Below are positions 1,642 through 56,488 of a stretch of DNA of 64,000 nucleotides, one piece after another. The stretch is from NCBI GenBank assembly GCA_902464015.1, contig CABQHM010000008.1, forward strand, positions 6,253-70,252, in the 5' to 3' direction. Source of the stretch: an uncultured Coriobacteriales bacterium (GTDB lineage: Bacteria; Actinomycetota; Coriobacteriia; Coriobacteriales; UMGS124). Every line of letters begins with the position of its first letter. The first letter of the stretch is position 1. The notes beneath the pieces were generated by a model, which was not told where the DNA came from, searched no databases, and worked only from the letters and a program-made list of their open reading frames with translations. The translations under genes and the position numbers were made by a program.

Positions 1642-3222
1642 TTACTCCGCTGCCTTGTAAGCTTCCAGAGACTTCTTGCCCACGGTGCAGCGCAGCACGA
1701 ACAGGACTGCGATGGTGAGCACGACGGCGATGGGCAGGCAGATGAACGCGCTGCGCACAAAGCCAGCGATGACGAACATCACAAAAGAGATGCCGGCCAC
1801 GGTGAGCGCGTAGGGGAGCTGGGTGCTCACGTGCGTGATGTGGCTCACGTTGGCACCGGCGCTCGCCATGACCGTGGTGTCGGAGATGGGCGAGATGTGG
1901 TCGCCGCAGACGGCACCGGCCAGGCATGCGGAGATGCCGATATTCATGAGCACGGGATCGGAGGAAGCGAAGATGGCGGTGACGATGGGGATGAGGATGC
2001 CGAAGGTGCCCCAGCTCGTGCCGGTGGAGAAGGCCAGGAAGACGGCAACCAGGAAGATGATGGCAGGCAGCATGGAGAAGAGGCTCTCAGCGGCGCCACC
2101 CACAACGCCGGCCACAAACACGTCGGCACCCAGGGCGCCCGTCATGGACTTGAGGGTGAGTGCGAAGGTGAGGATGAGCAGGGCCGGCACCATGGCGATG
2201 AAGCCCTTGGTGATGCAGTCCATGGCCTCCTTGAACGTCACGACGCGGCGGGCGATGAGGTAGATGATGGAGAGGATGAGTGCGATGATGGTGCCCCAAG
2301 GCAGGCCAACGGAGGCGTCGGTGTCAGAGAACGCAAGGGACGGGTTCATGTAGCCTTCGGTGGTCGCGTCCCAGAAGCCACCGACGTAGAGCATGCCGGC
2401 GATGCAGCAAATGATGAGCATGATAATCGGCACAAGCATGTCCCACAGGTTGGCCTTGGGGTTGGAGACAACGTCCTCTTTGGAGAGTTTGCCCAGCTCG
2501 CCGTCACGGTAGGCAGCAAGCTCGGCCTTGGCCATGGGGCCGTAGTCAAAGCCCATGATGCACAGGCCGATGACGAATACGATAGTCATGAGCGAGTAGA
2601 AGTTAAACGGGATGGCCTCAATGAACAGCTGGATGCCCGAGATGCCGTTATTGAGGCCGGCGGCGGTGGAGCTCACGGCGGCCGCCCACGAGGAGATGGG
2701 GGCAATCATGCAGATGGGTGCGGCCGTGGCGTCGATGATGTAGGAAAGCTTGGCGCGCGATACACGGCAGGCGTCGGTCACGGGGCGCATCACGGAACCC
2801 ACAGTGAGGCAGTTGAAGTAGTCATCGATGAAGATGAGCACGCCGAGAGCAAACGTGGCGAGCTGCGCGCCCATGCGGGACTTCACATGCTTGGCCGCCC
2901 AAGCAGCGAATGCCGCCGAGCCGCCAGCCTTGTTGACAAGGGCCACGACGATGCCGAGCATGATGAGGAAGATGAAGATACCCGCGTTGCTCGGGCTGCT
3001 TACCGCGTTGATAAAGCCGACAGTGGTCCCCTCGCCATCCACGCCGGGCACCGTGTTGGAGATGATGTTGTTTATCGTGTCGATGGGGTTGAAGCCTGCC
3101 ACGAGCAGGGCACCCACGACAATGCCGATGAACAGCGAGCTATAGGTTTCCTTGGTGATGAGGGCCAACACGATAGCCACAATGGGCGGCACGAGTGACC
3201 AAAACGTTCCGACGAACTCCAC
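1642..3222 (-). CDS. NhaC-family Na+/H+ antiporter-like transporter, probably an amino-acid (lysine-linked) carrier
   Basis: Track ORF 1642..3234. The polytopic sequence (FWSLVPPIVAIVLALITKETYSSLFIGIVVGALL...) is typical of the NhaC family. I prefer GTG 3222 as the start because GGAGGA lies 5 nt upstream; TTG 3234 is the alternative. Confidence 0.85.
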   Translation of the reverse strand: MEFVGTFWSLVPPIVAIVLALITKETYSSLFIGIVVGALLVAGFNPIDTINNIISNTVPGVDGEGTTVGFINAVSSPSNAGIFIFLIMLGIVVALVNKAGGSAAFAAWAAKHVKSRMGAQLATFALGVLIFIDDYFNCLTVGSVMRPVTDACRVSRAKLSYIIDATAAPICMIAPISSWAAAVSSTAAGLNNGISGIQLFIEAIPFNFYSLMTIVFVIGLCIMGFDYGPMAKAELAAYRDGELGKLSKEDVVSNPKANLWDMLVPIIMLIICCIAGMLYVGGFWDATTEGYMNPSLAFSDTDASVGLPWGTIIALILSIIYLIARRVVTFKEAMDCITKGFIAMVPALLILTFALTLKSMTGALGADVFVAGVVGGAAESLFSMLPAIIFLVAVFLAFSTGTSWGTFGILIPIVTAIFASSDPVLMNIGISACLAGAVCGDHISPISDTTVMASAGANVSHITHVSTQLPYALTVAGISFVMFVIAGFVRSAFICLPIAVVLTIAVLFVLRCTVGKKSLEAYKAAE

Positions 3223-3306
3223 GGTTTCCTCCAATCTGGCAGGCTCGACAGCAAGCGTCTCTTGGTCCTGTCAGGCAGAAGTATCCTCATGCGTCCGCCC
3301 GGCCTA

Positions 3307-3476
3307 GATAGCGCTCCGCCTTTCGGCGACAGTGCGGAGGATGTTCTCCCACGCCCCAGGGTGCATATGCGGAAACATATGGGCCCTTCGGCGGCTTCCC
3401 CTTTTGCCCAGGCGCACCTTTCCGGATACTGCATCTCTGCGTGCCTGGCGCTACTTATGGTTGCCGCGCCTCTATC
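3307..3476 (-). promoter_or_regulatory. Lysine riboswitch (L-box)
   Basis: Minus-strand RNA reads GAUAGAGGCGC..AAGUAG..AAAAGGGGAAGCCGCCGAAGG..CCCUGGGG..CACUGUCGCCGAAAGGCGGAGCGCUAUC. This reproduces the invariant L-box blocks (AGAGGCGC, GAGUAG, GG.GA..CGCCGAAG, CCUGG, ACUGUC). The 5' GAUAG pairs with the 3' CUAUC to close P1. It sits about 85 nt upstream of the transporter start. Confidence 0.85.
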
Positions 3477-3751
3477 GTGCCTTTGTATAAAGACGCCGCC
3501 ATAGTAGAGCACCCTGTCGCTTATGTCTTACAGGAATATGAGTTTTTAAAAAACCTTGACGGCGAGTGCATAAATAATCGAAAAACGGTTGACGGCAAAG
3601 CGATGAGCGGCGCAGGGAATTAGTCGGGAGCAAGTTCGAGGTAACGATATGGAATCCGCTGGTGATTCCGCGCTAAAATAGCCCGAATAGATGAGTGCCG
3701 CCCGCCGCGCATCGCGGCGCCCCTGCGGCATCGCGCAAGAAAGGACCTGCC

Positions 3752-37305: not shown

Positions 37306-37420
37306 CGGTATACTGTGTTGCGATGGGCCCGGGATGACCGCTGATTCAAGTCACCGGGCCTGAATTTGTACCTGTGGGGAATTCGCGTGGCGGACGCCAA
37401 CCAAGAACTTCGAGGGTAGC
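37306..37420 (+). repeat. Copy 1 of a ~110-nt repeat carrying a conserved hairpin
   Basis: TATACTGTGTTGCGATGGGCCCGGGATGACCGCTGATTCAAGTCACCGGGCCTGAATTTGTACCTGT... Stems GGCCCGG/CCGGGCC and TGAC/GTCA. Homologous to 40365-40500. Confidence 0.6.
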
Positions 37421-37543: not shown

Positions 37544-38554
37544 TCATGACTGCACCGGTGCCCAGATGTCAACAAGCTTTAGAAGAAAATCAAAGAACGA
37601 TGTAATTACGTTGTTCCCCTCAAAGAGCGGGCGACTCTTCTCCCATGAGCCTCTCAGCGCCTCTAGTGATCTAGCGTGCCTTGCCTTCGTTTCGGATCTT
37701 ATGCAGACCAGCTGCGCCGCGTAGAGGGTTGAAGCAATCTGAACGGTTCTCAGGTTCGAGAGCCTTGCGCGTCTTGACTTGGTTCGCTTGAGACCATGCT
37801 TGTTAAGCGACGCGGTTATGAGGGCGTTGACGTCCGTACTTGCCTTCTGTTCCGTTCGCGACACGCCGTTGAGAATGCAGCTGTTGTGGGCGCAGGCGTT
37901 TCTGAGTCCCTGCGTGCTTCGAAGCACATAGTGCTCCTGTCGCATCTCTTCGTCGTCCCAACGGTTTGCGCAAAAGAGGTAGAGAGAATTGAGCGTGCCG
38001 AATTCTGCTGCCTCAAGGAGCACCCATATTGGGATGCCGGTGTTGTAGTAGTGTGCAACGAGATCGCCCGAGTACTCATCGTGCTTTTCGTCGCCGTTGC
38101 TTCTGCCTTTGAGGTTGCCACTGATGTAGCTGCGGCCCTTGTGATTCATCTGTGCCAAGAAGTCCTCGACAATTGCGTAGCCGTCTTCTCTGTGGGCCTC
38201 GCACTTGTTGAGCAATCTGACGCGAGTGAAGTGCTCCACGTCGATTGCGATGGGTAGCAGACATTCTCTGAGTTGCCTGTCCAGTGAGGAAAGGCTTCGC
38301 AAGTGCTCGAAGTCAAGTCCCAGGTACTTGCCTACGTGTGGGCCCTGGTCCTGTACTGGAAAGAGTTTACGGTAAGAGGATGTGCGTAATAGGTTATTGC
38401 CCGAACGGAGATAGTCGGTGGCTTCGGCCTCGGTGCAGAGGGCGAAGGTTACGCCTTTGGACTTGAGGTGGGCGATTTGCTCGGGTACTGTGAGCAGGGG
38501 CTTGTTGTGTGGCTGTTGCTGGGCCCCGTGAGCTTGGCCGCTGTCTTCGGACAT
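37544..38554 (-). CDS. Abi_2 (AbiD/AbiF-like) abortive-infection family protein
   Basis: LTVPEQIAHLKSKGVTFALCTEAEATDYLRSGNNLLRTSSYRKLF and downstream LRNACAHNSCIL fit the Abi_2 family pattern. About 336 aa. Confidence 0.8.
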   Translation of the reverse strand: MSEDSGQAHGAQQQPHNKPLLTVPEQIAHLKSKGVTFALCTEAEATDYLRSGNNLLRTSSYRKLFPVQDQGPHVGKYLGLDFEHLRSLSSLDRQLRECLLPIAIDVEHFTRVRLLNKCEAHREDGYAIVEDFLAQMNHKGRSYISGNLKGRSNGDEKHDEYSGDLVAHYYNTGIPIWVLLEAAEFGTLNSLYLFCANRWDDEEMRQEHYVLRSTQGLRNACAHNSCILNGVSRTEQKASTDVNALITASLNKHGLKRTKSRRARLSNLRTVQIASTLYAAQLVCIRSETKARHARSLEALRGSWEKSRPLFEGNNVITSFFDFLLKLVDIWAPVQS

Positions 38555-40364: not shown

Positions 40365-40500
40365 GTCATAATACTGGCCAATGGCCCCGGAATGACCTCT
40401 GATTCAAGTCACCGGGGCTCGATTTGTTTACTTGTACGGATTCGAGGACGTGACCCTGGACAAGTTCCTTGAGGAGCACCCCGTGCCGGTGGATGTCAAG
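40365..40500 (+). repeat. Copy 2 of the hairpin-bearing repeat
   Basis: CATAATACTGGCCAATGGCCCCGGAATGACCTCTGATTCAAGTCACCGGGGCTCGATTTGTTTACTTGT... Stem GCCCCGG/CCGGGGC is maintained by compensatory changes. A TTGTAT-17nt-CATAAT promoter-like element lies just upstream. Confidence 0.6.
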
Positions 40501-40789
40501 TTTTAGACCTTAAACCAATGCCCATTTGTGAACGCTTTTGTGAAGCGGGCGGTTTGTGACGCCTGAGGATAATGCTGCCAGCGCAGGACAACCCTATAGA
40601 CGGTGATTTCCATGCCGAAACGAGGCCGACCGAGGAGATGGTCGAGCAGGCCAGCAAGCTGAAAAACGACAGGCTCTTTAATGGCGGCATAATGTCTCGT
40701 GCCGTTCGCAAACCTCCGACAGTTCGGGTATGTCTCGCAAGTCGGCCCATATGTATGATGGCTCCACTCTTTCAGGCGGGAGCATTCTC

Positions 40790-41431
40790 ATGGAACAGGT
40801 TTTGGCCGTTCTGGGCGATGCCATCCAAAGCACCCACCCCTTTGTCCTTTATTTCGTGGGTATGAACGTACTCACATTCGTTCTCTTCGCAATCGACTAT
40901 GCGATAGTCTGTCGCAACCAGGACCCGGACACCGGGCTCATGGATGGCAGGATTCTGACGCTGTTTGCCGTGGTGGGTCGTGCCCTCGGGATGTTCGTCG
41001 CCTTGGCCATCTTTACCAGGCTACACATGAACAAGGCCAACATCGCCTGGTGGTTCAGCGCCATAATGCTCCTGATTGTCTGGGTTCTCGTCGTTCTCGT
41101 GTGGGCCGGCGTCATCGAGCTGAGCCCGGACCTTGGTGCGCCGTTCAATATCCCCGTTCTTGTCGGGTTGGGCGTATACCTTCTTCTTATCAATGTCGTC
41201 ACGTTCGCCGTCTTCTGTCTGGACAAGAAGAGAGCCGTCAACCGGAGCAGCAGGTTTCCCGAGGCCGCCCTGCTGGGCCTCTCGCTCGCCGGAGGGTCCC
41301 TGGGCGGCATCGTCGCCATGCGAGTCGCGCACCACAAGACGTCCAAGTGGTATTTCACGGTTGGGCTGTCTGCGTTCATCGCCCTGCACGTCGTGCTGTT
41401 CTTTTTTGCGCACAGTGCCGGGATCGTTTAG
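40790..41431 (+). CDS. DUF1294-domain membrane protein (extended/duplicated form)
   Basis: Track ORF 40730..41431, ATG 40790. The C-terminal half (FCLDKKRAVNRSSRFPEAALLGLSLAGGSLGGIVAMRVAHHKTSKWYF) matches the DUF1294 signature. The N-terminal half is a degenerate copy. Confidence 0.7.
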   Translation: MEQVLAVLGDAIQSTHPFVLYFVGMNVLTFVLFAIDYAIVCRNQDPDTGLMDGRILTLFAVVGRALGMFVALAIFTRLHMNKANIAWWFSAIMLLIVWVLVVLVWAGVIELSPDLGAPFNIPVLVGLGVYLLLINVVTFAVFCLDKKRAVNRSSRFPEAALLGLSLAGGSLGGIVAMRVAHHKTSKWYFTVGLSAFIALHVVLFFFAHSAGIV

Positions 41432-41442
41432 GAGGTCTCAAA

Positions 41443-41988
41443 ATGGAAGTAATCGGACTTGTTTCTCTCCTTCTCCTTTTCTTCTTGGTTCTCGTGATTC
41501 TCGGGTTCACACTTTTCTTCGAAGACAGGCAAAACAAGCGGAATGCCGAGCTTGAGAAGGCCAGGCTCGAAGCCAAGTGGGAGCGCGCGAGCAAGGCCTT
41601 CAGGGACGACATGACCCAGGAGGGCTTCGAGGAAGTCGTCGCTGGGGCCGAGCGCCTGATCAAAAGGGTCGAATCCCTTAAGGTAAAGGGTCACAAGGTC
41701 TACGGCGCCGTCTCCGCCTTAAGCGGAATCAGCTCGTGGAAGTTCGTCATCATATTCGATTGCGGAGGGCATCTTACGAGCGAGTACATCATCGCGAGTG
41801 ATAACGATGACTCGAACATACCGGATCGCATTGCCAAGCACATCGCCGAGGGGATAAGGACCTGGTCGCCCTTGACTTGCAGGGTGGCTGCGGCTTTCTG
41901 CCCGTACTGCGGTACCAAGGCGGGCCAAGGCATGGTCTTTTGCCCCTCATGCGGCGCAAGGCTACCGCAGGTGCCGGAGAGGCCCTAA
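41443..41988 (+). CDS. Single-pass membrane protein with a C-terminal zinc ribbon
   Basis: Tail of track ORF 41050..41988. ATG 41443 lies 11 nt after the DUF1294 stop. TM helix VIGLVSLLLLFFLVLVILGFTLFF. C-terminal CPYCGTKAGQGMVFCPSCG. Confidence 0.65.
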   Translation: MEVIGLVSLLLLFFLVLVILGFTLFFEDRQNKRNAELEKARLEAKWERASKAFRDDMTQEGFEEVVAGAERLIKRVESLKVKGHKVYGAVSALSGISSWKFVIIFDCGGHLTSEYIIASDNDDSNIPDRIAKHIAEGIRTWSPLTCRVAAAFCPYCGTKAGQGMVFCPSCGARLPQVPERP

Positions 41989-42197
41989 CGTACCTTCGCG
42001 GTTGCTACATGGCGCATAGATGGATTTGGTCGAGCTTGCTCGCAAGCGCCTGGGCGGTGGCCAGAAATCTTCTGCCCGCGTGACTAACTGGCCCTCGAGA
42101 GCGGCATGGTTTCTCGCGATGATGGATTGCGCCTCTTTTAACGGTGGCTTTCTTTTGTGTCGCCGCCGCGCGCTTCTTGATTGCCCCCCTGTGAAGA

Positions 42198-42908
42198 CTA
42201 TTCTTCGGCGTCGTGGTTCGTGCGCCACTCGGGCGTGTCGGTGTCCCAGATGCATGCGAGGAAGTCGCCATCGTCGCTGTAGCCCTCGCAGGTGAGAGTC
42301 GCGCTCGTGACAAACGGCTCTGGCTCGGGGTCGTCGATACAGCGCAGTCCGCCCTTGCCGGTGTTGAGTTCCATTCCAAGTTCGAACCCGAAGCCTCGAA
42401 CCTCGAACTCGCAGCTCACGGTAAGCAGCATTGCATCGCATGCCGGAACCTCGCAGGAGTCGAAGGATAGCGCAGTTGGGACGAGGTTGGTCGGCAGCGC
42501 CCTGGCGAGGATCTCGCCGATGGCATTGGCGACCATGTCTTCGTAGGTGTAACGGTAGTCGCGTTCGCTGGGGTTGGCACCCGTGGGGAACTTGCTGTTT
42601 TCACTGACGTTCGCCCTATGCCAGACGTAGAAGTCGAGGTTGAACGGCAGATCCTCGGCCATGTCGGAGTCGTGGCTATCGTCGAGCCTGAGCCCGTGTG
42701 CCTCGGCCAGCAGACGAATGGCGCGGTCGAGGTCGAACACGTCCCAAGCGTCGGCATTTTCCGAACAATCGAGGACTTCTGCGGCGAGACCGCACGTGTT
42801 GACGCTACAGCCGTCGGGCATGGATTCAAGGGCGAAGAGGATGCGCTCTGCGTCCTGCCTGGTTGATGTGGGGATGGAAAGTAGAGCGTCGAGGTCTTCG
42901 TGGTTCAT
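42198..42908 (-). CDS. Strongly acidic hypothetical protein (236 aa)
   Basis: Track ORF with natural composition, D/E-rich throughout. I recognise no family. Confidence 0.6.
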   Translation of the reverse strand: MNHEDLDALLSIPTSTRQDAERILFALESMPDGCSVNTCGLAAEVLDCSENADAWDVFDLDRAIRLLAEAHGLRLDDSHDSDMAEDLPFNLDFYVWHRANVSENSKFPTGANPSERDYRYTYEDMVANAIGEILARALPTNLVPTALSFDSCEVPACDAMLLTVSCEFEVRGFGFELGMELNTGKGGLRCIDDPEPEPFVTSATLTCEGYSDDGDFLACIWDTDTPEWRTNHDAEE

Positions 42909-42928
42909 GGGATACCCTTCCTTTTGAG

Positions 42929-43135
42929 TTAGTCGACGGGCTTTGCATGGTACTGGTCGATGGGCTTGCCGTTCTTGTCACGCCAGTCCATCCGACTGTT
43001 TGACGAGTGAGCCAGGACGCCGACGCCCTTGACCCTGCGGCACATGTGGTAGGTGCCGTCGGGGATGTGTGACCAGTCAACCTCGATAGAGCGTTGCTTG
43101 GTGGCCTGGTCGAAGAGAGTCTCCTTCGAGGGCAT
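42929..43135 (-). CDS. Small basic hypothetical protein
   Basis: Track ORF 42929..43159, with ATG 43135 (MPSKETLFDQ) as an alternative start. It lies 20 nt upstream of the acidic gene. Confidence 0.4.
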   Translation of the reverse strand: MPSKETLFDQATKQRSIEVDWSHIPDGTYHMCRRVKGVGVLAHSSNSRMDWRDKNGKPIDQYHAKPVD

Positions 43136-43389
43136 GCGCGCACCGCCTTTCCGTTTCATTGGGGTGGATTATCGCACCGCGCAGGATGTCCGCCAATGGG
43201 CGACAGCGTGGTCGTAGGGATAAGTGTCCGTAACCGTTTGTGGTCCTGAGGGCGTGTTTTGCTTGCCAGTATGTCAGCAGCATTGAGCATTCTATTAACA
43301 GGTGAGTGTTAAACTGCCATGGTATGATACTTTTGACCATCGAGGGCGGCCTTTAGATTCCGCCGTCTTGTTTACCGCATAGGGGCGTT

Positions 43390-45024
43390 ATGGCACGTAA
43401 GACCACGAAGAAGGAAACCGAGCTAACGCTTGAGGATGCGTTGTGGAACTGTCGTGTGGCGCTTCGCGGCGTGGGCAGCATCGAGAAGAACCGTGACGCC
43501 GTTATCAGCCTGGTGTTCCTGAAGTTCGCAAGCGACAAGTTCGAGGCACGCCGCGCCGAGATTCCCGCTGAGGTGAAGCAGAAGCAGGGTATTGACCCCT
43601 GCCCCGAGTTCATGCTGGAACAGCCTTCCTTCTATAACGCTGCCAACGTCTTCTATCTGCCTCGTGAGTCGCGCTGGCAGTACCTCGTCGACAATGCCTC
43701 GGCAAACGACATCGCCAGCAAGATCGACAAGGCCATGGCCGACGCCGAGCGGGAGAACCCTGCGCTGAGGGGTGCTCTGCCGCTTAACCTGTTCTCCACC
43801 CTGGGGGCCGAAATCCGCTCTGTGAAGTCGCTTATTGACAACGTAGGCAAGATTGACCGCAGCCGCTTTCACGAGGAAGACCTCATCGGGCGCGTGTACG
43901 AGTACTTTCTGCAGTCGTTCGCGGTGGGCAGCTCCAAGGAGGACGGTGAGTTCTATACGCCGGCCAGCGTGGTACAGCTCATTGCCGAGCTCATTGAGCC
44001 CTACGAGGGCGTGGTGTACGACCCCTGCTGCGGGTCGGGCGGCATGTTCGTGCAGTCGCACAAGTTCGTCGAGAAGCACAACGGCAATCGCAGTGCCATC
44101 TCGATTGTGGGCCAGGAGTCCAACTCCGACACCTGGCGGCTGTGCAAGATGAACCTGGCCATACGCGGCATCGCCAACAACCTGGGTGAGAAAGCCGCGT
44201 CGAGCTTCACGGCCGACCAGCACAAGGACAAGAAGGTCGACTACATCATGGCCAACCCGCCGTTCAACCTGAAGAACTGGCGCAGGGAGGATGAGCTTAC
44301 GAAAGATCCCCGTTGGATGGGTTACCCTGTGCCGCCCGTCTCCAACGCGAACTATGCCTGGATTCTGCATATGATTTCGAAGTTGGATGTGAACCACGGT
44401 GTCGCGGGGTTCTTGCTGGCCAACGGCGCCCTCAACGCCGACGGCGACGAGGGTGCGATTCGTCAGAAGCTCATCGAGAACGACAAGGTAGAGGCCATTA
44501 TCGTGCTGCCGCGCGACATGTTCTATACCACCGACATATCGGTGACGCTGTGGATTCTGAACATGAACAAGGACGCCTGCGAGCGCAACGGCCGCCGACT
44601 GCGTGACCGGCGCGGCGAGGTGCTGTTTATGGACCTGCGCACCTGGGACGAGAACGTCGAGAAGTACAAGCTGGACAAGAACAAGACCAAGAAGAAAACT
44701 GTGCTCACGTCCGAGCAGATCTCGCGCGTGAAGGACATCTTCGAAAGTTGGCGTTGCGCCGACGGCTGCTATAAAGACGCATCCGAGTTGTGCAAATCTG
44801 TCCGCGTGAAGAGCGACGACTCCGATGAGCTGACCATTGCAAGCCGTGGTTATGTGCTGACGCCAAGTAAATACATCGAGTTTGTTGATCGCGACTTGGA
44901 TATCGACTACGAGAAAGAGATGGGCCGCATCCAGGCCGAGATGAGGGAGCTGCTGGCAATTGAGAAGAAGTCCCAGGCCATGCTCGAGGCCGCGTTCGAG
45001 GGCATTGGCTATGGGATTGAATAG
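43390..45024 (+). CDS. hsdM: Type I restriction-modification system, methyltransferase subunit
   Basis: HsdM N-terminal domain (LEDALWNCRVALRG). SAM motif VYDPCCGSGGMF. Catalytic IMANPPFN. Confidence 0.9.
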   Translation: MARKTTKKETELTLEDALWNCRVALRGVGSIEKNRDAVISLVFLKFASDKFEARRAEIPAEVKQKQGIDPCPEFMLEQPSFYNAANVFYLPRESRWQYLVDNASANDIASKIDKAMADAERENPALRGALPLNLFSTLGAEIRSVKSLIDNVGKIDRSRFHEEDLIGRVYEYFLQSFAVGSSKEDGEFYTPASVVQLIAELIEPYEGVVYDPCCGSGGMFVQSHKFVEKHNGNRSAISIVGQESNSDTWRLCKMNLAIRGIANNLGEKAASSFTADQHKDKKVDYIMANPPFNLKNWRREDELTKDPRWMGYPVPPVSNANYAWILHMISKLDVNHGVAGFLLANGALNADGDEGAIRQKLIENDKVEAIIVLPRDMFYTTDISVTLWILNMNKDACERNGRRLRDRRGEVLFMDLRTWDENVEKYKLDKNKTKKKTVLTSEQISRVKDIFESWRCADGCYKDASELCKSVRVKSDDSDELTIASRGYVLTPSKYIEFVDRDLDIDYEKEMGRIQAEMRELLAIEKKSQAMLEAAFEGIGYGIE

Positions 45025-49100: not shown

Positions 49101-49383
49101 CAAGGTGCGCGATGACCACGGCTTCAAGTTTGAGGACGACAAGTGCGTCGCCTTGGCTAAGGAGATTGCGAAACTGGTGAACGACAAGGCACAGTTCGCT
49201 GACTGGTCGACCCGCGATGACATCAAAAACCAGCTGCGCATGGACCTGACGATCATGCTGTATAAGAACGGCTACCCGCCCGAGTGGGACGAGGAAGTGT
49301 TCGAGAAGGTCATGGAGCAGGCCGAGAACTTCAAACAGTACGAAGGGCCGACCCGGTATGAGAACTCGACTGTGGGGGTGTGA
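46165..49383 (+). CDS. hsdR: Type I restriction enzyme, endonuclease/helicase subunit
   Basis: N-terminal PD-(D/E)xK region RPDLLCFVNGIPLAILEFK. Helicase motifs GATGCGKT and CISDEAHRTQ. 1072 aa. Confidence 0.9.
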   Translation: MDGDFATQNGKFTEDQLEQAIIELFCQQNADGVRWNYVNGEDMQRDLGEPLLEDRLRANIGKRYADLDLTEGEVQAVVNELKYIPDTPLYDGCRATYWLINEGYTLVREDASEPAAHIEYIDFDDISNNDILIVNQYTVEDVRTRRPDLLCFVNGIPLAILEFKTAVEEDKSIHDAWMQICVCYARDIPNLLKYCCVAAISDGANSRLGTVFTPYSYFYAWNKANNRDKVSNGISSLLTMVKGAFAPGRFLAIVRDFVFFPDDDKREIEIVCRYPQYFAATKMLDSVCAHLRPAGDGKGGTYFGATGCGKTYTMLFLTRLMMLRRSHELGNPTVVIIVDREDLDDQTSELFVTAKQFLHEEDVRSIETRADLARTLKDKPSGGVYVTTIQKFSEGMGLLSDRTNIVCISDEAHRTQTGVGSKLKVTGEGAFTRYGFAKYLRDGFPNATYVGFTGTPIDETIAVFGPVVDRYTMKESSDDGITVRIAYEPRLARVMLSDEQAKQIQAYYDHCAEEGSTEDAIEESQRAMSSMAVLLRHPERLEKLAVDMVAHYERLCHEKPGVVQKAMVVCSNRAHAFDLLNAVLKIRPEWGVSKKAEDEGALPAEKLEELEALPKINIVATRGKDDPKDLFDACGNKEWRKKLDKQFKNNDSNFSVAVVCDMWITGFDVPSLAVMYIDKPLQRHTLVQTISRVNRVFEGKDQGLVVDYIGIKENMLKALKTYGGDDAGSIDELTVTLGIFRNHLAMVDELMANFDSAPFRTGTPLERLTCLNEAAEYVQLSRETQTRFMGLTRVLKSAYGICFPSGELTDRETSMAQFYLAIRSIIYKQTIGDAPDAETMNEAVEEMVRRAISCTGVENVIDADGAEDLFGEEMAAELDAVKMPITKFNALLKLVRRAIREYGRTNKVKAVQFDERLRKVVDAYNSRDNLTFTSEVVSDFVDSLSDQLVAILNDLRRDKASFAEMGVTFEEKAFFDILVKVRDDHGFKFEDDKCVALAKEIAKLVNDKAQFADWSTRDDIKNQLRMDLTIMLYKNGYPPEWDEEVFEKVMEQAENFKQYEGPTRYENSTVGV

Positions 49384-50018
49384 AACCGGGCATGAAAGAC
49401 AAGGTTGAGTTGGCCGCCACGCTTGTTGGCACCGCCGTTGCCGTTTTGACCTATCTGGGAGTCAGCGTTTCCGACCTTTGGGGCCTTGCCGAGAAGCTCG
49501 CCTGGGCCCTTCCCTTCGTGTATGTTCTTGCCGGATTCGCCATCGGATACGGGTTTCATGCGTCCCATGGCCGCTGCGGCCGCAGACCTGAGGTTGTCGG
49601 AGAAGGTGTCGGCCCCACAGAGGAAGACATCAGGGAGAGCTTCCGCTCGGCGCCATTTGAAATCAAGGTGTTCCTCAAAGCGATTCTGGATCATCAGGCA
49701 GCCTATCGGGGGGCGAATGACTACTTTTGGAATCGTTGGTCACAGTCTCTTGCGCAGTTCGTTGTTGTGACCAACATACGCAACGACATATGCAGGTGCA
49801 CGCTGAGAGCCTCTGCGCGGCTGCAGTTCGAACAGATGCCTGACCTGCTCGCCGACGTGACGGATGCCGACGTTCGTATGCACGCCGTAAGGGGCACTGA
49901 AGGTGTGAAACCGCATATCATGTCGGCAGACAACCTGATTTGGTGGTTCTACACCGACGATGAGACGTTGCCAGCCCCTTGTGGCAACATCGGCTTTATG
50001 AGAGGCCGTATGGGATGA
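49380..50018 (+). CDS. Hypothetical two-TM protein translationally coupled to hsdR
   Basis: GTG 49380 overlaps the hsdR TGA (GTGTGA); alternative ATG at 49392. Two hydrophobic helices, then a ~140-aa soluble domain. No family recognised. Confidence 0.55.
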   Translation: MKPGMKDKVELAATLVGTAVAVLTYLGVSVSDLWGLAEKLAWALPFVYVLAGFAIGYGFHASHGRCGRRPEVVGEGVGPTEEDIRESFRSAPFEIKVFLKAILDHQAAYRGANDYFWNRWSQSLAQFVVVTNIRNDICRCTLRASARLQFEQMPDLLADVTDADVRMHAVRGTEGVKPHIMSADNLIWWFYTDDETLPAPCGNIGFMRGRMG

Positions 50019-50296: not shown

Positions 50297-51010
50297 TTAT
50301 GCCCCAGCTACCTCGGGTTTCACGGCGCCTGTCTCCTCTGCCTTCTCTGCCAACGCCCTCTTTGCGCGCAACACGGCGTAGCTGCCAAAAATCGCGGTGT
50401 ACACAAGTGAGGTGAAGGCGGCCTGACCCGATCCGTACACGGCGGAGGGCACGACCATGAGCGTCACGTGGATGTACGTGCAGGCGTAGAACAGGTACGA
50501 CCAGCGCTGCACGGCCTTCCAGGTGGTGGCGTTCATGGCACGCTTCACGAACTTAAACGAAGTGACGCCCAGAACGATGAGCAAAACGAGCAAGATGAGC
50601 GCCACGATGAGGCCGACCACCGTCATAGGCATGGCAAAGCCCAGGCGAATTGCGATGTCTGCCATGCGCGGGATGACCGTCAAATAGAACAGGTGGCCCA
50701 GGCACAGAATCCAGGCGAAGATGCTGAGCTCGCCGCGCGAGGGACGAAGCCGCTGGGCAATGGGGGAATTCTTGGGGAACACGCCCACAAACATCACGAC
50801 CACGAACAGCGCCGTGCCGAGCATGCACTGGTCAACGGCGAAGAAGATGGGCGTCCACAGAAAGCTGGGCAGCGAGAAGAACTTGCCGTACAGGAAAAGC
50901 GCCTCAAGAGCGAATGCGCCAACGTAATACGCGATGGCGTGTTTGCGCATCGAGCGTGCCGCAAACCAGCAGAATGCGACGGCCAGCAGCTGAATAATCA
51001 GGTATTTCAT
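50297..51010 (-). CDS. Ferric-reductase-like (MsrQ/YedZ-type) transmembrane-domain protein
   Basis: Six hydrophobic helices with conserved His positions (LCLGHLFY, TYIHVTLM). The assignment is inference from the pattern. Confidence 0.55.
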   Translation of the reverse strand: MKYLIIQLLAVAFCWFAARSMRKHAIAYYVGAFALEALFLYGKFFSLPSFLWTPIFFAVDQCMLGTALFVVVMFVGVFPKNSPIAQRLRPSRGELSIFAWILCLGHLFYLTVIPRMADIAIRLGFAMPMTVVGLIVALILLVLLIVLGVTSFKFVKRAMNATTWKAVQRWSYLFYACTYIHVTLMVVPSAVYGSGQAAFTSLVYTAIFGSYAVLRAKRALAEKAEETGAVKPEVAGA

Positions 51011-51505
51011 TCCCAGAACCCCTTTGATGTCCCTTGCCTTACCAATCGAGGGCCAATCATAGCGCGCGAAGACGCGACAAAGGGCCCTGCCGCTTATGTC
51101 AAGCTTGCTTGGGGCGCAACAATTGCCGACGGTGCCGAAACCTCATGTTTCGCCACCGAGGGTGGGTTGAGCGCTTTCTCACTTCATCACAATATCTTGA
51201 CGTTCGTACGGGGTGGGGGAATGCCCTTTGTTGTTTTTGCGCGGTGCAGTCCAAGGGCAACGCCCGCTTCCTGGCCGCCGATGAGGAAGGTGCGGCCGAG
51301 AAGTTCGGCGTGTACTGCGGCCATGCTGTGTGCGGGAAACCACCGATGGAGCGAGCAGGACTGGCTCCGCACCCTGCCTCTCAGTTTGCATTCTCGGCAT
51401 TTGGGCAGGTTGATGGGTGAGTTTCGCATGCCTTTGGGCTATGATTGCCGCTTGTGAGCTCCTTTGGACCACTGGTACGCACACCGCCGCGAAGGGTTGG
51501 TTTTC

Positions 51506-52516
51506 ATGCAGGATAAAAAGCGCATCTTGGCCGTCGCCACGGGCGGAACGATTGCCTCCGTCGAGGACGGTCGCGGCCTGACGCCGGGATTGAGCGGCGA
51601 CGAGCTGCTGGCCTACGTTCCCGAGGCCGCAAGCCTGTGCCGCATCGACGTGGTGCAGCCCATGAACATCGACAGCACGAACGTGCGCCCGCGTGACTGG
51701 ATGCACATTCGCAACGTGATTGTGGACGCGTATGACAGCTACGACGGCTTTGTGGTGCTGCATGGCACGGACACCATGGCTTACACAGCGGCGGCCCTGT
51801 CGTACCTGATTCAAGACAGCCCCAAACCCATCGTGCTGACGGGCTCGCAGCAGCCCATGGCCAACCCTTTCACCGACGCCAAACTCAACCTTTACCAGAG
51901 CCTTCTGTATGCCGTAGACGATTCGGCCCACGACGTGTGCGTGGTCTTCGGCGGGATGGCCATCGCTGGCACGCGTGCCCGCAAGCAGCGCACCATGAGC
52001 TTCAACGCGTTTGTCAGCGTAAACTACCCCGAGCTCGCCCTCATCCGCAACGGGCGCGTCATCCGGGCGGGTCGCGACAACAAGCCGCCTGCGGACTCGG
52101 CGCGCTTCTACGACGGGCTCGACGAGCGCGTGTTCGTCCTGAAGCTGACTCCCGAGATGGGTCCGGGCATCTTCGAGCTTCTCAAGCGCGACTACGACGC
52201 CGTCATCGTCGAGACGTTCGGCATTGGAGGTATCCCCGAGCACGAGGACGCCTCGTTTGAGCGTGCCATCTTCGACTGGGTGGATTCCGGGCGCTTCGTT
52301 GTCATCACGACACAGGTGCCCGAAGAGGGTTGCGACCTGGGTGTTTACAAGGTTGGCCGTGCCTACCTCGACCATCCGGGCATCCTCATCGGCGACGACA
52401 TGACAACCGAGGCGCTCGTTGCCAAGACCATGTGGGTTCTGGGCCAGAGCCGCGACCCGCAGTGCGTGAGCGAGCTGTTTAGGCGACCTGTCAATTGTGA
52501 CCGCGCGATGGGCTAG
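51506..52516 (+). CDS. ansA: Type I L-asparaginase
   Basis: ATG 51506. ILAVATGGTIAS and VLHGTDTMAYTAAALSY active-site motifs. Confidence 0.85.
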   Translation: MQDKKRILAVATGGTIASVEDGRGLTPGLSGDELLAYVPEAASLCRIDVVQPMNIDSTNVRPRDWMHIRNVIVDAYDSYDGFVVLHGTDTMAYTAAALSYLIQDSPKPIVLTGSQQPMANPFTDAKLNLYQSLLYAVDDSAHDVCVVFGGMAIAGTRARKQRTMSFNAFVSVNYPELALIRNGRVIRAGRDNKPPADSARFYDGLDERVFVLKLTPEMGPGIFELLKRDYDAVIVETFGIGGIPEHEDASFERAIFDWVDSGRFVVITTQVPEEGCDLGVYKVGRAYLDHPGILIGDDMTTEALVAKTMWVLGQSRDPQCVSELFRRPVNCDRAMG

Positions 52517-52712
52517 GAAAACGATACATAGGCGGGCTGTGTGGCATTTCACCATTGCCGCCATGCTGGTAAAGAGCGTGTTCGACGATGCCGGCTGCGT
52601 TTGATCGCCTCTTCACTCGCCGGTGACGGCCTCTCCTGATGCTGGTCATCCCGAGCGCGCCCACCTTGTCGGGTGGCGCGAGGCATTGTGCAAGGTCGAT
52701 TCCAAGGTCTTT

Positions 52713-53213: not shown

Positions 53214-55706
53214 CTAGGCCTCGTTTTTGGGATAGCCTATGATGCGCACACTCCAGCCGCGCTGGGGGTCGAGTGCGAGGTATGCCTCGAACTTCGAACC
53301 GTCTCGCTTGGAGGTCAGGCCTTTTACCAGTACCGTCTCGCCCTTGAGCAACTTGAGGATGTCGGCCTTGGGCAGCTTCTTGCCCAGATGCTCGCGGTTC
53401 AAGCGAAAGTCGCAGGTGCGTTCCCCGGGCGCGACGTCCTTCTTGTTGTGCTTGCACAGGTAAGGCACCTTGTCGTTGCCCACATCCACCACTTCGCCGC
53501 CGCACTTGGGGCACACGCCCACCTTCACCGATTGGTCATGTGCAATGCGGGGGCGATACCCTTGTGCGGGGTCGAGCTCGATGAGCCGGTCGACCGTCGA
53601 GCCGTCCTTGCGGGCCAGGCCCTTGACCTTCGCCGCCTTGCCCGCCAGCAGTTTTTTGGCGCTGACAGCCGAAATCTCAGCCCCCATGAAGGTTTTCGAC
53701 AGCTTAAACGAGCAGGTACCGCATGATTTCCAGGCAGGTGCGCCGTCGGGACCCGTCGTGCGCTCGCGGCGCACGTTCTCGCAAAGATATGGCGAGCGGG
53801 GGTTGCCGTTGTCCAGCACGCGTCCTCCGCACTGGGGGCAGCGACCGATAATCTCGCCTGTGGGCGCCGCCTCACGACGCGGCATCGCCATGCCAGCGGC
53901 AACAACCTCGTGGACAAGCTTTGTCACGCCTTGCATGAAGGCCTCTGAGTCGGCTCCCTCGCGCTCAACCGCGGCAAGGTCACGCTCCATCGAAGCCGTG
54001 AGGCGCACGTCTTTCAGACGAGGGTCCACCGCGTCGATGAGGGCCCGTCCTTCGGCCGTCGACATGAGCGTCGTGCGCTTGCGCTCCAGGTAACCGCGGT
54101 CGACAAGCGAGGCGATGATGCCGGCACGAGTGGCGGGAGTGCCGAGGCCGCCCGAGTGGGAGGCGGAGTCCTTGATTGCCGAGCGCAGGTCTTCCTCGTC
54201 GAGAAAACGCTCGGCATGCTCCATGGCGGCGAGAAGCGTTGCATCGGTGAAGCGCTTGGGCGGGGTGGACTTCACGGTCTTGAGGTCGCCGCCGAGTACC
54301 GGCAGCTCCATCCCGGGCACAAGGTTCTCAGGGATGCGAGAGGTGTCCTCGCCGCCCTCTTCTTCCTCGGTAGACGCTGTGCGGCGCAGCTTTTTCCAGC
54401 CAGCTTCGAGCTCAAGGGAAGAGGTTGCACGGTAGGCCTGGTCGTTGACGACGACGTCGAGACCGGCCTTTTCCAGCACGCGGTCGGGCGCCACCGCGGC
54501 AAGCAGCGACTCGCAGATCATGCCCGCGATGAGGGCGTCGTCACCCTTGAGGCCTTGCATGCACAAGGAAGTCAGGCGGGTCGTGGGAAGAAGCGCGCCA
54601 TGGCCCTCGACCTTCGAGTCGTCGATGACTTTCGACGCGTCGTGCGACATGCTGCCAAATGCTTTCGCCGTATCTGCGCCCACATGCTCGGGGGTGCTCA
54701 CCAGGCGGATAAGCTGCTCGAGGCCCTCGCCGTCCTCGGTGTTCACAAAGCACGAGTCCGTGCGCGGATAGGTGATGAGGCCGCGCTCGTAAAGGCTTTG
54801 CAGGGCTCTATCGCATGCGTCAGGACTCATGCCGAAGCGCTCGCTGGCAAGCTTCTGAGCGCCGGTCGTGTTGAGCAGGGTGGGGGAGCCTTCCGCCGCC
54901 TTCTTCCTCTGAACACCAGCAACCGTCGCACGCGTCTTTTTGGCGGCATTGAGTCGATCTTTCGCCTCCTTCTGCGAAGCGCAGGGCTCGCCGAGAACGA
55001 CAAGGCCGTCTCCCAGATTGAGCGCCACGCGGTACGATTCTGCAGGCTCGAACGTCTCGATGGCGCGGTCGCGCGCCACCACGAGGGCCAGCGTGGGCGT
55101 GCGCACGCGTCCCACGCTTTGCGCCGACCTTAAAGTGCGCGAATAGAGGCGGCTGGCGTTCATGCCAACCAGCCAGTCAGATTTCGAGCGCAGGATTGCA
55201 GATTCCAGCAATCCCTGGTATTCGGCGTTAGGCTTAAGCTGGGCAAATGCCTTTGCGAGAGCCGCATCTTCAAGCGAGGAGCACCAGAGCCTGTCCACCG
55301 GCAGCGTGCAGCCCAGTTCGCGCAGGACCAGGTCGGCGATGGCCTGACCCTCTCGATCGGGGTCGCATGCGTGAATAACACGCCCATACAACCCGCTTTG
55401 CAGCAGCTCGGCCATGCAGCTGAATTGCTCAGCCGCTGCGCCGCCATCAGGCGATTTCCAGCGCCATCCGTCGCTACCCGGATCGATGGGCAGCTTTGCG
55501 CCCGAGCTGGACCACTCGGGATGGTCTTTGTACTCCTCGGGCAGAAGCAGCCGCATGAGATGCCCCTGAGCCCACACGACGTCGTAAGCCTCGCCCTCGA
55601 TCCAGGTGCCGTGGTCTTTCTTGCATCCCAAATGGCGCGCCAGCACCTTGCCCACTGTGCGCTTCTCAGCGATGACGAGGGTCTTCTTACCAGGGGTTGC
55701 CTGCAT
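53214..55706 (-). CDS. topB: Type IA DNA topoisomerase (topoisomerase III-like) with C-terminal zinc-ribbon repeats
   Basis: Toprim start KTLVIAEKRTVGK. Catalytic-tyrosine motif GLITYPRTDS. C-terminal CPQCGGRV, CGTC and CPKCGGEV modules. Confidence 0.9.
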   Translation of the reverse strand: MQATPGKKTLVIAEKRTVGKVLARHLGCKKDHGTWIEGEAYDVVWAQGHLMRLLLPEEYKDHPEWSSSGAKLPIDPGSDGWRWKSPDGGAAAEQFSCMAELLQSGLYGRVIHACDPDREGQAIADLVLRELGCTLPVDRLWCSSLEDAALAKAFAQLKPNAEYQGLLESAILRSKSDWLVGMNASRLYSRTLRSAQSVGRVRTPTLALVVARDRAIETFEPAESYRVALNLGDGLVVLGEPCASQKEAKDRLNAAKKTRATVAGVQRKKAAEGSPTLLNTTGAQKLASERFGMSPDACDRALQSLYERGLITYPRTDSCFVNTEDGEGLEQLIRLVSTPEHVGADTAKAFGSMSHDASKVIDDSKVEGHGALLPTTRLTSLCMQGLKGDDALIAGMICESLLAAVAPDRVLEKAGLDVVVNDQAYRATSSLELEAGWKKLRRTASTEEEEGGEDTSRIPENLVPGMELPVLGGDLKTVKSTPPKRFTDATLLAAMEHAERFLDEEDLRSAIKDSASHSGGLGTPATRAGIIASLVDRGYLERKRTTLMSTAEGRALIDAVDPRLKDVRLTASMERDLAAVEREGADSEAFMQGVTKLVHEVVAAGMAMPRREAAPTGEIIGRCPQCGGRVLDNGNPRSPYLCENVRRERTTGPDGAPAWKSCGTCSFKLSKTFMGAEISAVSAKKLLAGKAAKVKGLARKDGSTVDRLIELDPAQGYRPRIAHDQSVKVGVCPKCGGEVVDVGNDKVPYLCKHNKKDVAPGERTCDFRLNREHLGKKLPKADILKLLKGETVLVKGLTSKRDGSKFEAYLALDPQRGWSVRIIGYPKNEA

Positions 55707-55721
55707 GGGCGATGTTCTCCT

Positions 55722-56216
55722 CTACCTTTTAAAAAGCCGGGGGTCGTTGGACACGCTCTCGTTGCCCAGGGCGAATGTGAGCCAGGAGCGCAGCTCCTCG
55801 AGATATGCTCCGCCAAGGGATGACGCCTGCTGTGACACGGCGGTAGGAACCTGAAAGACGCGGCGCCAAAAGGCCTGGTTGCGCACCATGACCAGTTCAT
55901 ACTTCCAAATCGCGTCATAGTCCTCGCGCGAGATGCCCAGGTGCCGCTCGTACCAGTCGGGAACGTTGCGGACGCCTTCGTCTTCTAAGAACTCACGGAC
56001 GTCACCGCATCCCGCCATGGGATATTCGGGAATGTTGTAACCATCATGGCGCGCAATGCCCCAGATAAGCATGCGTCCGTCAGGATAACGCTCGATTGTG
56101 TCGCCCAGAATCTCTTCTACGAGACGCGCGAGCCTGCCGCATGTGACTCCAGCAGGCAGCTCGCCACCAGGCTGGGGGAGCAGCCGCAAAACACGCCTTG
56201 CAAGCACAACGTTCAT
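55722..56216 (-). CDS. Hypothetical protein upstream of and co-oriented with topB
   Basis: Tail of track ORF 55722..56333. ATG 56216 follows GGAGGAGG. It ends 15 nt before the topB start. Confidence 0.55.
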   Translation of the reverse strand: MNVVLARRVLRLLPQPGGELPAGVTCGRLARLVEEILGDTIERYPDGRMLIWGIARHDGYNIPEYPMAGCGDVREFLEDEGVRNVPDWYERHLGISREDYDAIWKYELVMVRNQAFWRRVFQVPTAVSQQASSLGGAYLEELRSWLTFALGNESVSNDPRLFKR

Positions 56217-56488
56217 GCCGGCCTCCTCCTGCCCCAGTAGTGTTGTGCGTATACATGCGCATGGTAGCGTACCGCAGGTTGGGCTCGGGGAGAAGGAGAG
56301 GCAGGGGCGTGTCCGCAACCTCGAAGAATTCACGCAGGTAATGCAGTAAAAACATAACGGGGCGCAGCATTGCTACCGACGCCCCGCCCGGGGCGGCGAG
56401 GCGGGCCATGCGTGCATCGGGGCGCTTGTTGTGCGGGGAATCGGCCAGCCGTGGTGGTTCCTGCACGCTTCGCGAAAGGCAGCCGCTA

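What the first reader, a model, noticed from the sequence alone, without database searches (positions are those of the whole stretch)
40790..43159. Four uncharacterised genes wedged between the Abi module and the type I R-M system
Inside the AT-richer island, two convergent mini-operons carry no assignable function. On the plus strand is a double-length DUF1294 membrane protein, followed 11 nt later by a single-pass membrane protein ending in a CPYCG...CPSCG zinc ribbon. On the minus strand is a small basic protein, followed 20 nt later by a strongly acidic 236-aa protein. Genes embedded between known defence genes are statistically often defence or anti-defence genes themselves. A membrane protein paired with a zinc-ribbon sensor is a plausible abortive-infection effector/sensor pair. 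No nuclease, ATPase or other known defence domain is visible, so any function would be new.
Basis: inference. Interest (0 to 1): 0.6.

Follow-up and report, generated by a model that had tools for sequence, protein, structure and literature searches.

The report
Mixed leftover genes in a defence island
The four unannotated genes between the Abi module and the type I restriction system are real ORFs, but they are three unrelated items (a membrane gene pair, a decayed stump of a restriction-associated gene, and a rare very acidic orphan protein), and none of them has a demonstrated defence role.

Summary
All four ORFs exist as described: the spacings of 11 and 20 nt, the CPYCG/CPSCG zinc ribbon, the internal DUF1294 duplication and an acidic protein with pI 4.05. 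They do not form two functional pairs.

- **G3, the "small basic protein" (68 aa).** It is the stump of a T5orf172–RAMA/DUF4357 gene (PADLOC candidate PDC-S57). The nuclease domain and about 56 core residues are missing. Sister lineages destroy it by a nonsense mutation or a 131-bp deletion, while G4 stays intact.
- **G4, the acidic protein (236 aa).** It belongs to a tiny orphan family with no fixed partner. It was not found in GTDB species representatives, IMG/VR, plasmids or phages. Three of its four independent contexts lie next to restriction or Abi genes. Only a winged-helix-like N-terminus is modelled with any confidence.
- **G1 and G2 (DUF1294 plus TM/zinc-ribbon protein).** They are adjacent in 18 of 20 Collinsella/Senegalimassilia species genomes, often near DUF3800 and AbiD-like genes. 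G2 is inactivated in 15 of those 18, whereas G1 is uninterrupted in 16 of 20 (dN/dS about 0.15–0.2). An obligate sensor–effector pair is therefore unlikely.

The defence-island association is partly supported, mainly for G4. Function remains inferred. Interest is modest.

The parts
40790..41431 (+). G1: a 213-aa, six-segment membrane protein made of two tandem DUF1294 repeats. The N-terminal repeat is degenerate and the C-terminal repeat is canonical.
   Evidence: Pfam DUF1294 at aa 135-189, 76 bits. Self-similarity of the halves E=3e-4. Hydrophobic segments. All homologues start at MEQ. dN/dS 0.15-0.39.
41443..41988 (+). G2: a 181-aa bitopic protein with an N-terminal TM helix, a cytoplasmic region of about 110 aa and a C-terminal C4 zinc ribbon (CPYCG...CPSCG). 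It is translationally coupled to G1.
   Evidence: Zn_Ribbon_1 30.6 bits. AGGAGG overlaps the G1 stop. Adjacent to G1 in 18/20 genome loci. dN/dS 0.2-0.35 where intact. AF2 pLDDT 57.
41989..42197 (.). Convergent intergenic region between G2 and G4, with a terminator-like hairpin at 42115-42131 (+).
   Evidence: Conserved at 86-92% in sister loci.
42198..42908 (-). G4: a 236-aa cytoplasmic orphan protein, pI 4.05, net charge -35. It has a winged-helix-like N-terminal domain (aa 1-78), conserved LPFxLD[FY]xVWH and DYRY motifs, and a beta-rich C-terminus.
   Evidence: Only 7 clusters among 5.8 billion proteins. Alignment A1. AF2 pLDDT 63.8, N-terminal blocks 62-88. Foldseek gave nothing below E=0.02. 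pI. dN/dS 0.15-0.48.
42929..43135 (-). G3: a 68-aa ORF (76 aa if started at 43159). It is the eroded remnant of a T5orf172-RAMA/DUF4357 (PDC-S57-like) gene.
   Evidence: PADLOC PDC-S57 E=5.6e-10, model positions 103-139. Full HMMER scan plus Pfam of the hits. tblastn: aa 3-39 match P0020 106-142 and aa 37-65 match P0020 199-227. Nonsense mutation or deletion in sister lineages.
43168..43196 (-). Promoter-like site (TTGGCG-17-TG-GATAAT) upstream of G3/G4, in the divergent region shared with hsdM.
   Evidence: It lies inside the 131-bp stretch deleted in L021.
40370..40789 (+). Conserved non-coding leader upstream of G1. It includes one copy (40381-40427) of a 47-nt hairpin repeat.
   Evidence: 98.6/93.0/92.2% identity to L001/L021/L013. 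No Rfam hit, and fold z-score -0.10. Repeat.

Best explanation
The 2.4-kb segment is not one system or two paired systems. It holds three unrelated items that sit together at a variable, defence-rich spot in the chromosome of a gut Coriobacteriia bacterium.

**1. G1+G2, a co-transcribed membrane module**
- G1 is an internally duplicated six-segment DUF1294 protein. Only its C-terminal repeat keeps the family's polar motifs (DKKR, RFPE, HHKTSK).
- G2 is a bitopic protein whose cytoplasmic part ends in a C4 zinc ribbon.
- The pair is inherited together in this lineage and in Collinsella.
- G1 is the constrained partner and G2 is frequently lost. G2 is therefore most likely a dispensable accessory or regulatory subunit of a DUF1294 membrane protein, not an obligate sensor for an abortive-infection effector (inferred).
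- What DUF1294 does is not known.

**2. G3, a non-functional stump**
- It derives from a restriction-associated T5orf172 (GIY-YIG-like nuclease)-RAMA/DUF4357 gene that once lay divergent from hsdM.
- The nuclease domain and the middle of the RAMA domain are deleted.
- At most, the stump still supplies the promoter and upstream reading frame for G4.

**3. G4, a solo fast-evolving acidic protein**
- It has a winged-helix-like N-terminus, moves between accessory islands without any fixed partner and usually lands next to restriction or Abi genes.
- Its most likely mode of action (inferred, not shown) is stoichiometric binding to a basic, nucleic-acid-binding target. That would make it a DNA-mimic-like modulator or decoy of a restriction enzyme or a phage protein, rather than an enzyme.
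For: **G3 is a relic**
- It matches PDC-S57.
- Its relatives are proteins of about 225 aa with T5orf172 plus DUF4357/RAMA domains.
- G3 aligns only to positions about 106-142 and 199-227 of those proteins, and no N-domain remnant is found upstream.
- A TGG->TAG change at codon 21 occurs in the L013-18 lineage, and a 131-bp deletion removes the start in L021. G4 and its ribosome-binding site remain intact in both.
- The nearest full-architecture relative (itself frameshifted) lies 3 nt after a type ISP R-M gene.

**G4 is solo**
- It occurs without G3 in L011 (GmrSD-G4-Abi_2-HsdR, beside two tRNAs and an IS30-like gene), in L012 (followed by AbiEi_4) and in L042-45 (DUF3825, a DUF6179 fragment and a 430-aa unknown protein).
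- No partner is shared among these contexts.
- pI 4.05, net charge -35.
- The N-terminal 78 aa are the better-modelled part, and the top PDB match is a small wHTH-like protein.

**G1 and G2**
- They are adjacent in 18/20 species-representative loci.
- G2 is disrupted in 15/18. Twelve loci share the same in-frame TGA, L039 has another in-frame stop, and two have a 3' deletion.
- G1 is uninterrupted in 16/20.
- G1 dN/dS is 0.15-0.2 at dS of about 0.9.
- G1 diverges from Collinsella about as much as the nearby asparaginase does (72-75% against 71% aa identity).

**Rate of evolution**
- All four genes evolve faster than hsdMSR: dN/dS 0.2-0.6 against 0.06-0.10.
Against: - No function was demonstrated for G1, G2 or G4.
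- G1-G2 lie beside AbiD-like genes in two different arrangements (the window type and L037-39) and beside DUF3800 genes in Collinsella. A defence role is therefore not excluded.
- The G3 ORF is still open and 75-90% conserved in several strains, so a residual micro-protein role cannot be ruled out.
- The DNA-mimic idea for G4 rests only on charge and neighbourhood.
- G4 context sampling is thin: only 4 independent contexts.
Confidence: 0.55

Rival explanations
1. G1+G2 is a new abortive-infection pair, with a DUF1294 membrane effector triggered by a membrane-anchored zinc-ribbon sensor. G3+G4 is a second new defence or anti-defence pair.
For: - G1 and G2 are tightly coupled (11 nt apart, with the ribosome-binding site over the stop) and adjacent in 18/20 loci.
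- They recur near AbiD-like and DUF3800 genes. DUF3800 is retron- and CRISPR-associated in the literature.
- dN/dS is elevated relative to hsdMSR.
Against: - G2 is inactivated in 15/18 Collinsella loci, while G1 is uninterrupted in 16/20.
- G1 is frameshifted in L021.
- G1, G2 and G4 have no PADLOC hit.
- G3 is a domain-deleted relic, knocked out in sister lineages and absent next to G4 elsewhere.
- Several Collinsella contexts are otherwise housekeeping (guaA, asparaginase, pta).
Confidence: 0.12
2. G4 is an anti-restriction DNA mimic that works like ArdA or Ocr. It would be carried by a former mobile element to blunt type I or type IV restriction.
For: - Its charge is in the DNA-mimic range: pI 4.05, net -35 over 236 aa, spread evenly.
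- It lies directly beside a type I R-M system in the window.
- It lies beside GmrSD plus a type I HsdR in L011.
- It is a solo gene.
Against: - No Pfam family was reported for G4, so ArdA is not matched, and there is no PHROG hit.
- It is absent from IMG/VR, phage and plasmid collections.
- All copies are chromosomal-island contexts without conjugation or phage genes.
- The N-terminus looks like a winged helix rather than a mimic fold.
Confidence: 0.15
3. G1, G2 and G4 have nothing to do with defence. They are lineage-specific accessory genes, for example a small membrane transport or envelope module and a regulator. They happen to occupy a recombination hotspot where defence cassettes insert.
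For: - G1 shows divergence from Collinsella similar to that of the neighbouring asparaginase, which suggests vertical inheritance at a shared locus.
- Collinsella contexts include guaA, asparaginase, pta, TetR and a methyltransferase.
- The L042-45 context of G4 has no adjacent recognised defence gene.
- Abi_2 alleles are swapped around conserved neighbours.
- A 47-nt repeat flanks the Abi module.
Against: - 3 of 4 G4 contexts are immediately next to restriction or Abi genes.
- G4 is extremely rare and patchy, which is typical of island cargo.
- dN/dS is higher than for housekeeping genes.
Confidence: 0.25
4. All four are decaying, non-functional ORFs.
For: - G3 is a relic.
- G2 is widely pseudogenised.
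- G1 is frameshifted in L021, and hsdM is split in L013-15.
Against: - G1, G2 (where intact) and G4 keep open frames at dS of about 1, with dN/dS of 0.15-0.48.
- G4 has about 70 invariant columns across 46-88% identical homologues.
Confidence: 0.04

Closest known systems
PADLOC candidate PDC-S57, i.e. T5orf172 (GIY-YIG-like) + DUF4357/RAMA proteins associated with R-M systems
   Same: - G3 matches the PDC-S57 model (E=5.6e-10).
- It matches both ends of the RAMA/DUF4357 region of relatives of about 225 aa.
- It lies next to hsdM, and a close relative lies next to a type ISP enzyme gene.
   Different: - G3 lacks the whole T5orf172 domain and about 56 central residues.
- Pfam does not call DUF4357 in it.
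- It is inactivated in sister lineages.
- It is a remnant, not a member in working order.
DUF1294 (PF06961) membrane proteins, usually single-domain or fused to a cold-shock domain
   Same: The C-terminal repeat of G1 is a canonical DUF1294 (76 bits, full model coverage).
   Different: - G1 is a tandem duplication with a degenerate first repeat.
- It is paired with a TM/zinc-ribbon gene.
- The family itself has no established function. The only phenotype found in the literature was a transposon hit giving phage KIL5 resistance in P. syringae.
Acidic DNA-mimic anti-restriction proteins (ArdA, Ocr)
   Same: G4 is strongly acidic and sits beside type I and type IV restriction genes.
   Different: - There is no sequence match.
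- It is longer and has a winged-helix-like N-terminus.
- It is not found on phages, plasmids or viral contigs.
AbiD/Abi_2 single-gene abortive-infection loci and DUF3800 island genes
   Same: They share neighbourhoods with G1-G2 and G4 in several lineages.
   Different: - There is no homology to any of the four genes.
- The convergent 238-aa gene occupying G4's position in Collinsella is DUF3800 and is unrelated to G4.

Membership tests
DUF1294 (PF06961) | Match to the Pfam model above the gathering score | tested here: met
   G1 aa 135-189, 76.1 bits against a cut-off of 25, model positions 1-55/55.
DUF1294 (PF06961) | A second (N-terminal) DUF1294 copy, i.e. 'double-length' | tested here: met
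   Pfam does not call it. BLASTP of the N-terminal half against the C-terminal half gives E=3e-4 in register. The polar motifs are degenerate (DY for DK, RILT for RFPE, HMNKA for HHKTSK).
Zinc ribbon (PF13240 Zn_Ribbon_1) | CxxC...CxxC match above the cut-off | tested here: met
   G2 aa 152-174, 30.6 bits against 25. All four Cys are invariant in A5.
PDC-S57 / T5orf172-RAMA proteins | N-terminal T5orf172/MUG113 (GIY-YIG-like) domain | tested here: not met
   Absent from G3. tblastn of five relatives finds no remnant in 43136-43700. The relatives P0021 and P0023 do carry it.
PDC-S57 / T5orf172-RAMA proteins | Complete DUF4357/RAMA domain | tested here: not met
   Only the two ends align (aa 3-39 and 37-65 to P0020 106-142 and 199-227), so about 56 residues are missing. 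There is no Pfam DUF4357 call on G3.
Known or candidate defence systems (PADLOC-DB v2) | HMM match of G1, G2 or G4 | tested here: not met
   0 families at E<=0.1. The G4 homologue from L042 also gives none.
ArdA/Ocr-type anti-restriction DNA mimics | Sequence membership (Pfam/PHROG models) | tested here: not met
   No Pfam or PHROG family for G4.
ArdA/Ocr-type anti-restriction DNA mimics | DNA-like surface charge and inhibition of type I enzymes | not testable with these tools
   Only the bulk charge is known (pI 4.05, net -35). The model is too poor for surface analysis.
Two-gene toxin-antitoxin / effector-immunity pair (G3-G4) | Co-inheritance of both genes | tested here: not met
   G3 carries a nonsense mutation in L013-18 and a 5' deletion in L021, with G4 intact in both. 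G4 occurs without G3 in L011, L012 and L042-45.
Obligate two-gene sensor-effector module (G1-G2) | Both genes kept intact wherever the module occurs | tested here: not met
   G2 is disrupted in 15 of 18 species-representative loci and G1 is uninterrupted in 16 of 20. G1 occurs alone in Senegalimassilia L035.

The most novel reading that the evidence does not exclude
G4 may found a new family of solo, highly acidic winged-helix proteins that travel between defence islands. They would act as a DNA-mimic-type decoy or guard. One option is that they tune the neighbouring restriction or Abi system. The other is that they trap phage DNA-binding or anti-restriction proteins. A weaker alternative is that the DUF1294+zinc-ribbon pair is a new membrane-acting abortive-infection module that most Collinsella have since disabled.
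Probability: 0.15. Interest if true: 0.6.

Novelty: new member of a known kind. Interest (0 to 1): 0.3.

Why it matters
- **A warning about guilt by association.** Of four 'unknown genes between defence genes', one is a dead remnant of a known restriction-associated family. One pair is mostly half-inactivated in its other hosts. Only one gene, G4, remains a reasonable new candidate.
- **If G4 modulates restriction or Abi activity,** it would add a new, very rare protein type to the regulators or decoys found in defence islands.
- **If DUF1294 proteins turn out to have a phage-related membrane role,** the result would give a first function to a widespread domain of unknown function.

Tried and rejected
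**Structure and fold**
- AF2 models of G4 and G2 built from the available shallow alignments were of low confidence (pLDDT 63.8 and 57.2).
- Foldseek against PDB and BFVD gave nothing below E=0.02.
- PDB sequence and profile searches were empty.

**G3-G4 as a pair**
- This idea was rejected.

**Remnants of the T5orf172 domain upstream of G3**
- None was found.

**The 238-aa convergent gene after G2 in Collinsella as a G4 analogue**
- It is DUF3800 and is unrelated.

**A conserved partner for G4**
- None was found across the contexts.

**G4 in GTDB representatives, IMG/VR, plasmids and phages**
- There was no match. G1 also has no match on plasmids or phages.

**The conserved leader upstream of G1 as a structured RNA or riboswitch**
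- There is no Rfam hit at E<=5 and the fold z-score is -0.10.
- It has no homologue in Collinsella loci by nhmmer.
- The 39-aa uORF shows a non-coding substitution pattern.

**Literature**
- Nothing on PDC-S57.
- Nothing functional on DUF1294.
Full report
**Observation**

- The 11-nt and 20-nt gaps are correct. An AGGAGG overlaps the G1 stop codon, so G1 and G2 are translationally coupled.
- G1 hits Pfam DUF1294 only in its C-terminal half (aa 135-189, 76 bits). The N-terminal half aligns to the C-terminal half in register (E=3e-4), and there are six hydrophobic segments. G1 is therefore an internal duplication with a degenerate first repeat.
- G2 has one N-terminal TM helix and a C-terminal C4 zinc ribbon.
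- G4 has pI 4.05 and net charge -35. It has no Pfam, PADLOC, NCBIfam or PHROG match.
- All G3 homologues start at the second ATG, giving 68 aa (42929-43135).

**G3 is a relic**

- G3 matches the PADLOC candidate model PDC-S57 at model positions 103-139 of 229 (E=5.6e-10).
- An exhaustive HMMER scan of 1.84 billion representatives found only 11 hits. The informative ones are proteins of about 225 aa whose Pfam content is T5orf172/MUG113 plus DUF4357/RAMA, 'Restriction Enzyme Adenine Methylase Associated'.
- tblastn shows that G3 aa 3-39 correspond to P0020 106-142 and aa 37-65 to P0020 199-227. About 56 central residues and the entire N-terminal nuclease-type domain are missing, and nothing recognisable remains upstream.
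- In the DNA alignment of sister islands, the L013-18 lineage carries TGG->TAG at codon 21 and has lost the stop codon. L021 has a 131-bp deletion that removes the promoter-like site, the start codon and the first 21 codons. The G4 ribosome-binding site and ORF are untouched in both.
- One metagenomic variant (P0005) fuses G3 aa 1-45 to G4 from about aa 82.
- The nearest relative with the full domain architecture, itself frameshifted in the assembly (P0022, locus L046), lies 3 nt downstream of a type ISP R-M enzyme gene.
- G3 is therefore the stump of an R-M-associated accessory gene, not a partner of G4.

**G4 is a rare solo gene**

- Only 7 clusters were found among 5.8 billion proteins.
- It was not found in 185,579 GTDB species representatives or in IMG/VR by pattern scan with tblastn confirmation. 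tblastn found nothing in plasmid or phage records.
- There are four independent contexts:
  - The window-type island: hsdMSR on one side, G1-G2 and HTH-HTH-Abi_2 on the other.
  - L011: two tRNAs, an IS30-like gene, GmrSD, G4, Abi_2/AbiD, a transposase fragment and a type I HsdR.
  - L012: G4 followed by an AbiEi_4 gene.
  - L042-45: DUF3825, a DUF6179 fragment, G4 and a 430-aa unknown protein, with HipA 8 kb away.
- No neighbour is shared among these contexts.
- G4 is a real gene: about 70 columns are invariant across 46-88% identical homologues, and dN/dS is 0.15-0.48.
- The AF2 model is poor (pLDDT 63.8). Its best part is an N-terminal helical/winged-helix-like domain, and the top PDB match is the small protein 2ns0 at E=0.098. 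Nothing is significant.

**G1-G2 is a conserved pair, but G2 is expendable**

- A genome scan with the G1 alignment found 20 loci in Collinsella spp. and Senegalimassilia at 69-75% identity.
- G2 follows G1 in 18 of them.
- G2 is intact in only 3. Twelve loci share an in-frame TGA where intact copies have Arg, eleven of them with a further frameshift. Two have a 3' deletion that removes the zinc ribbon, and L039 has an in-frame stop.
- G1 is uninterrupted in 16 of 20 and shows dN/dS 0.15-0.2 at dS of about 0.9.
- In the window lineage, G1 is frameshifted in L021 and G2 in L013.
- The Collinsella neighbourhoods are guaA, asparaginase, TetR, a methyltransferase, DUF3800 on both sides, AbiD-like Abi_2 (L037-39), an ABC-F protein and pta.
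- G1 is as diverged from Collinsella (72-75% aa) as the nearby asparaginase (71%). This fits long residence at a shared hotspot rather than recent mobility.
- No homologue of G1 is found on plasmids or phages.
- DUF1294 has no established function.

**Selection**

Against L001, L013 and L021, hsdMSR and crp have dN/dS of 0.06-0.10. G1 has 0.35-0.39, G2 0.16-0.22, G4 0.30-0.44 and G3 0.59 on 13 substitutions.

**Interpretation**

- The segment is a patchwork: a membrane module whose second gene is dispensable, a dead R-M accessory gene, and a solo acidic protein.
- The sensor/effector and basic/acidic pair ideas are not supported.
- The mechanism for G4 (binding a basic or nucleic-acid-binding target as a modulator or decoy) and for G1-G2 (a DUF1294 membrane protein with an accessory zinc-ribbon subunit) are inferences from charge, topology and inheritance pattern only.

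**Limits**

- The alignments are shallow and the models of low confidence.
- Two fold libraries were unavailable.
- The pattern-based locus scans can miss divergent relatives.
- Most related sequences are short metagenomic contigs or MAGs.

Noticed in passing
window 37323-37369 and 40381-40427: A 47-nt hairpin-containing direct repeat (87% identical; the 31-nt core is found exactly twice in the window, against 0 expected) brackets the HTH-HTH-Abi_2 module. L001 has only the G1-proximal copy. It may be a recombination or cassette-exchange site, or a duplicated terminator.
   Followed up: partly
window 40370-40789: A non-coding leader of about 420 nt upstream of G1 is 98.6% identical to L001 and 92-93% identical to L021 and L013, as conserved as or more conserved than the flanking genes. 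It has no Rfam hit and no excess folding energy (z=-0.10). It holds a 39-aa uORF whose substitutions are mostly non-synonymous, and the window carries a +1 T that extends that uORF. The leader is unexplained.
   Followed up: partly
window 37544-38554 compared with L001:14361-15398 and L021:199-1179: The Abi_2/AbiD gene is replaced by different alleles (336, 345 and 326 aa; about 40% aa identity, or no DNA match) in otherwise syntenic islands whose HTH neighbours are 87-95% identical. This looks like allele swapping at a fixed slot.
   Followed up: partly
window 49380-50018 (+): A 212-aa ORF overlaps the hsdR stop by 4 nt. It has hydrophobic N-terminal segments and no family match. It is 97.6% identical to L001 with dN/dS 0.15, so it is an unknown, well-conserved rider on the type I R-M operon.
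   Followed up: partly
window 51179-52564 (-) and 51464-52516 (+): The long minus-strand ORF is the antisense shadow of a real asparaginase gene on the plus strand (Pfam Asparaginase, 71% identical to Collinsella). The island's right edge therefore lies at about 50-51 kb.
   Followed up: yes
P0005 (831-bp metagenomic contig): A 199-aa protein fuses G3 aa 1-45 in frame to G4 from about aa 82. This deletes the winged-helix-like domain of G4. It could be a real deletion variant or an assembly artefact.
   Followed up: no
L013-L015: hsdM is split into 323-aa and 217-aa ORFs in this lineage, which also has the G3 nonsense mutation. The whole island appears to be decaying there, while G4 stays intact.
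   Followed up: no
L011:5287-7321: The last 151 aa after the GmrSD ORF are read in another frame, so this is a possible frameshift in the type IV restriction gene. The island abuts two tRNA genes (3032-3184) and an IS30-like transposase.
   Followed up: no
L022-L039 (Collinsella loci): DUF3800 genes flank G1-G2 on both sides. DUF3800 genes are known to associate with several unexplained structured RNAs (Weinberg 2017, PMC5737381). No such Rfam motif reached the gathering threshold in the five of these loci scanned (L019, L022, L027, L038, L039), but yjdF/azaaromatic riboswitches occur in L038 and L039.
   Followed up: partly
window 3301-3482 (-): A lysine riboswitch (79 bits) is the only Rfam family above the gathering threshold in the window.
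   Followed up: no
window 53214-55706 (-): A Toprim/Topoisom_bac (topoisomerase III-like) gene lies just beyond the island, next to unassigned ORFs at 50297-51457 and 55160-56333. It may be a remnant of an integrative element.
   Followed up: no
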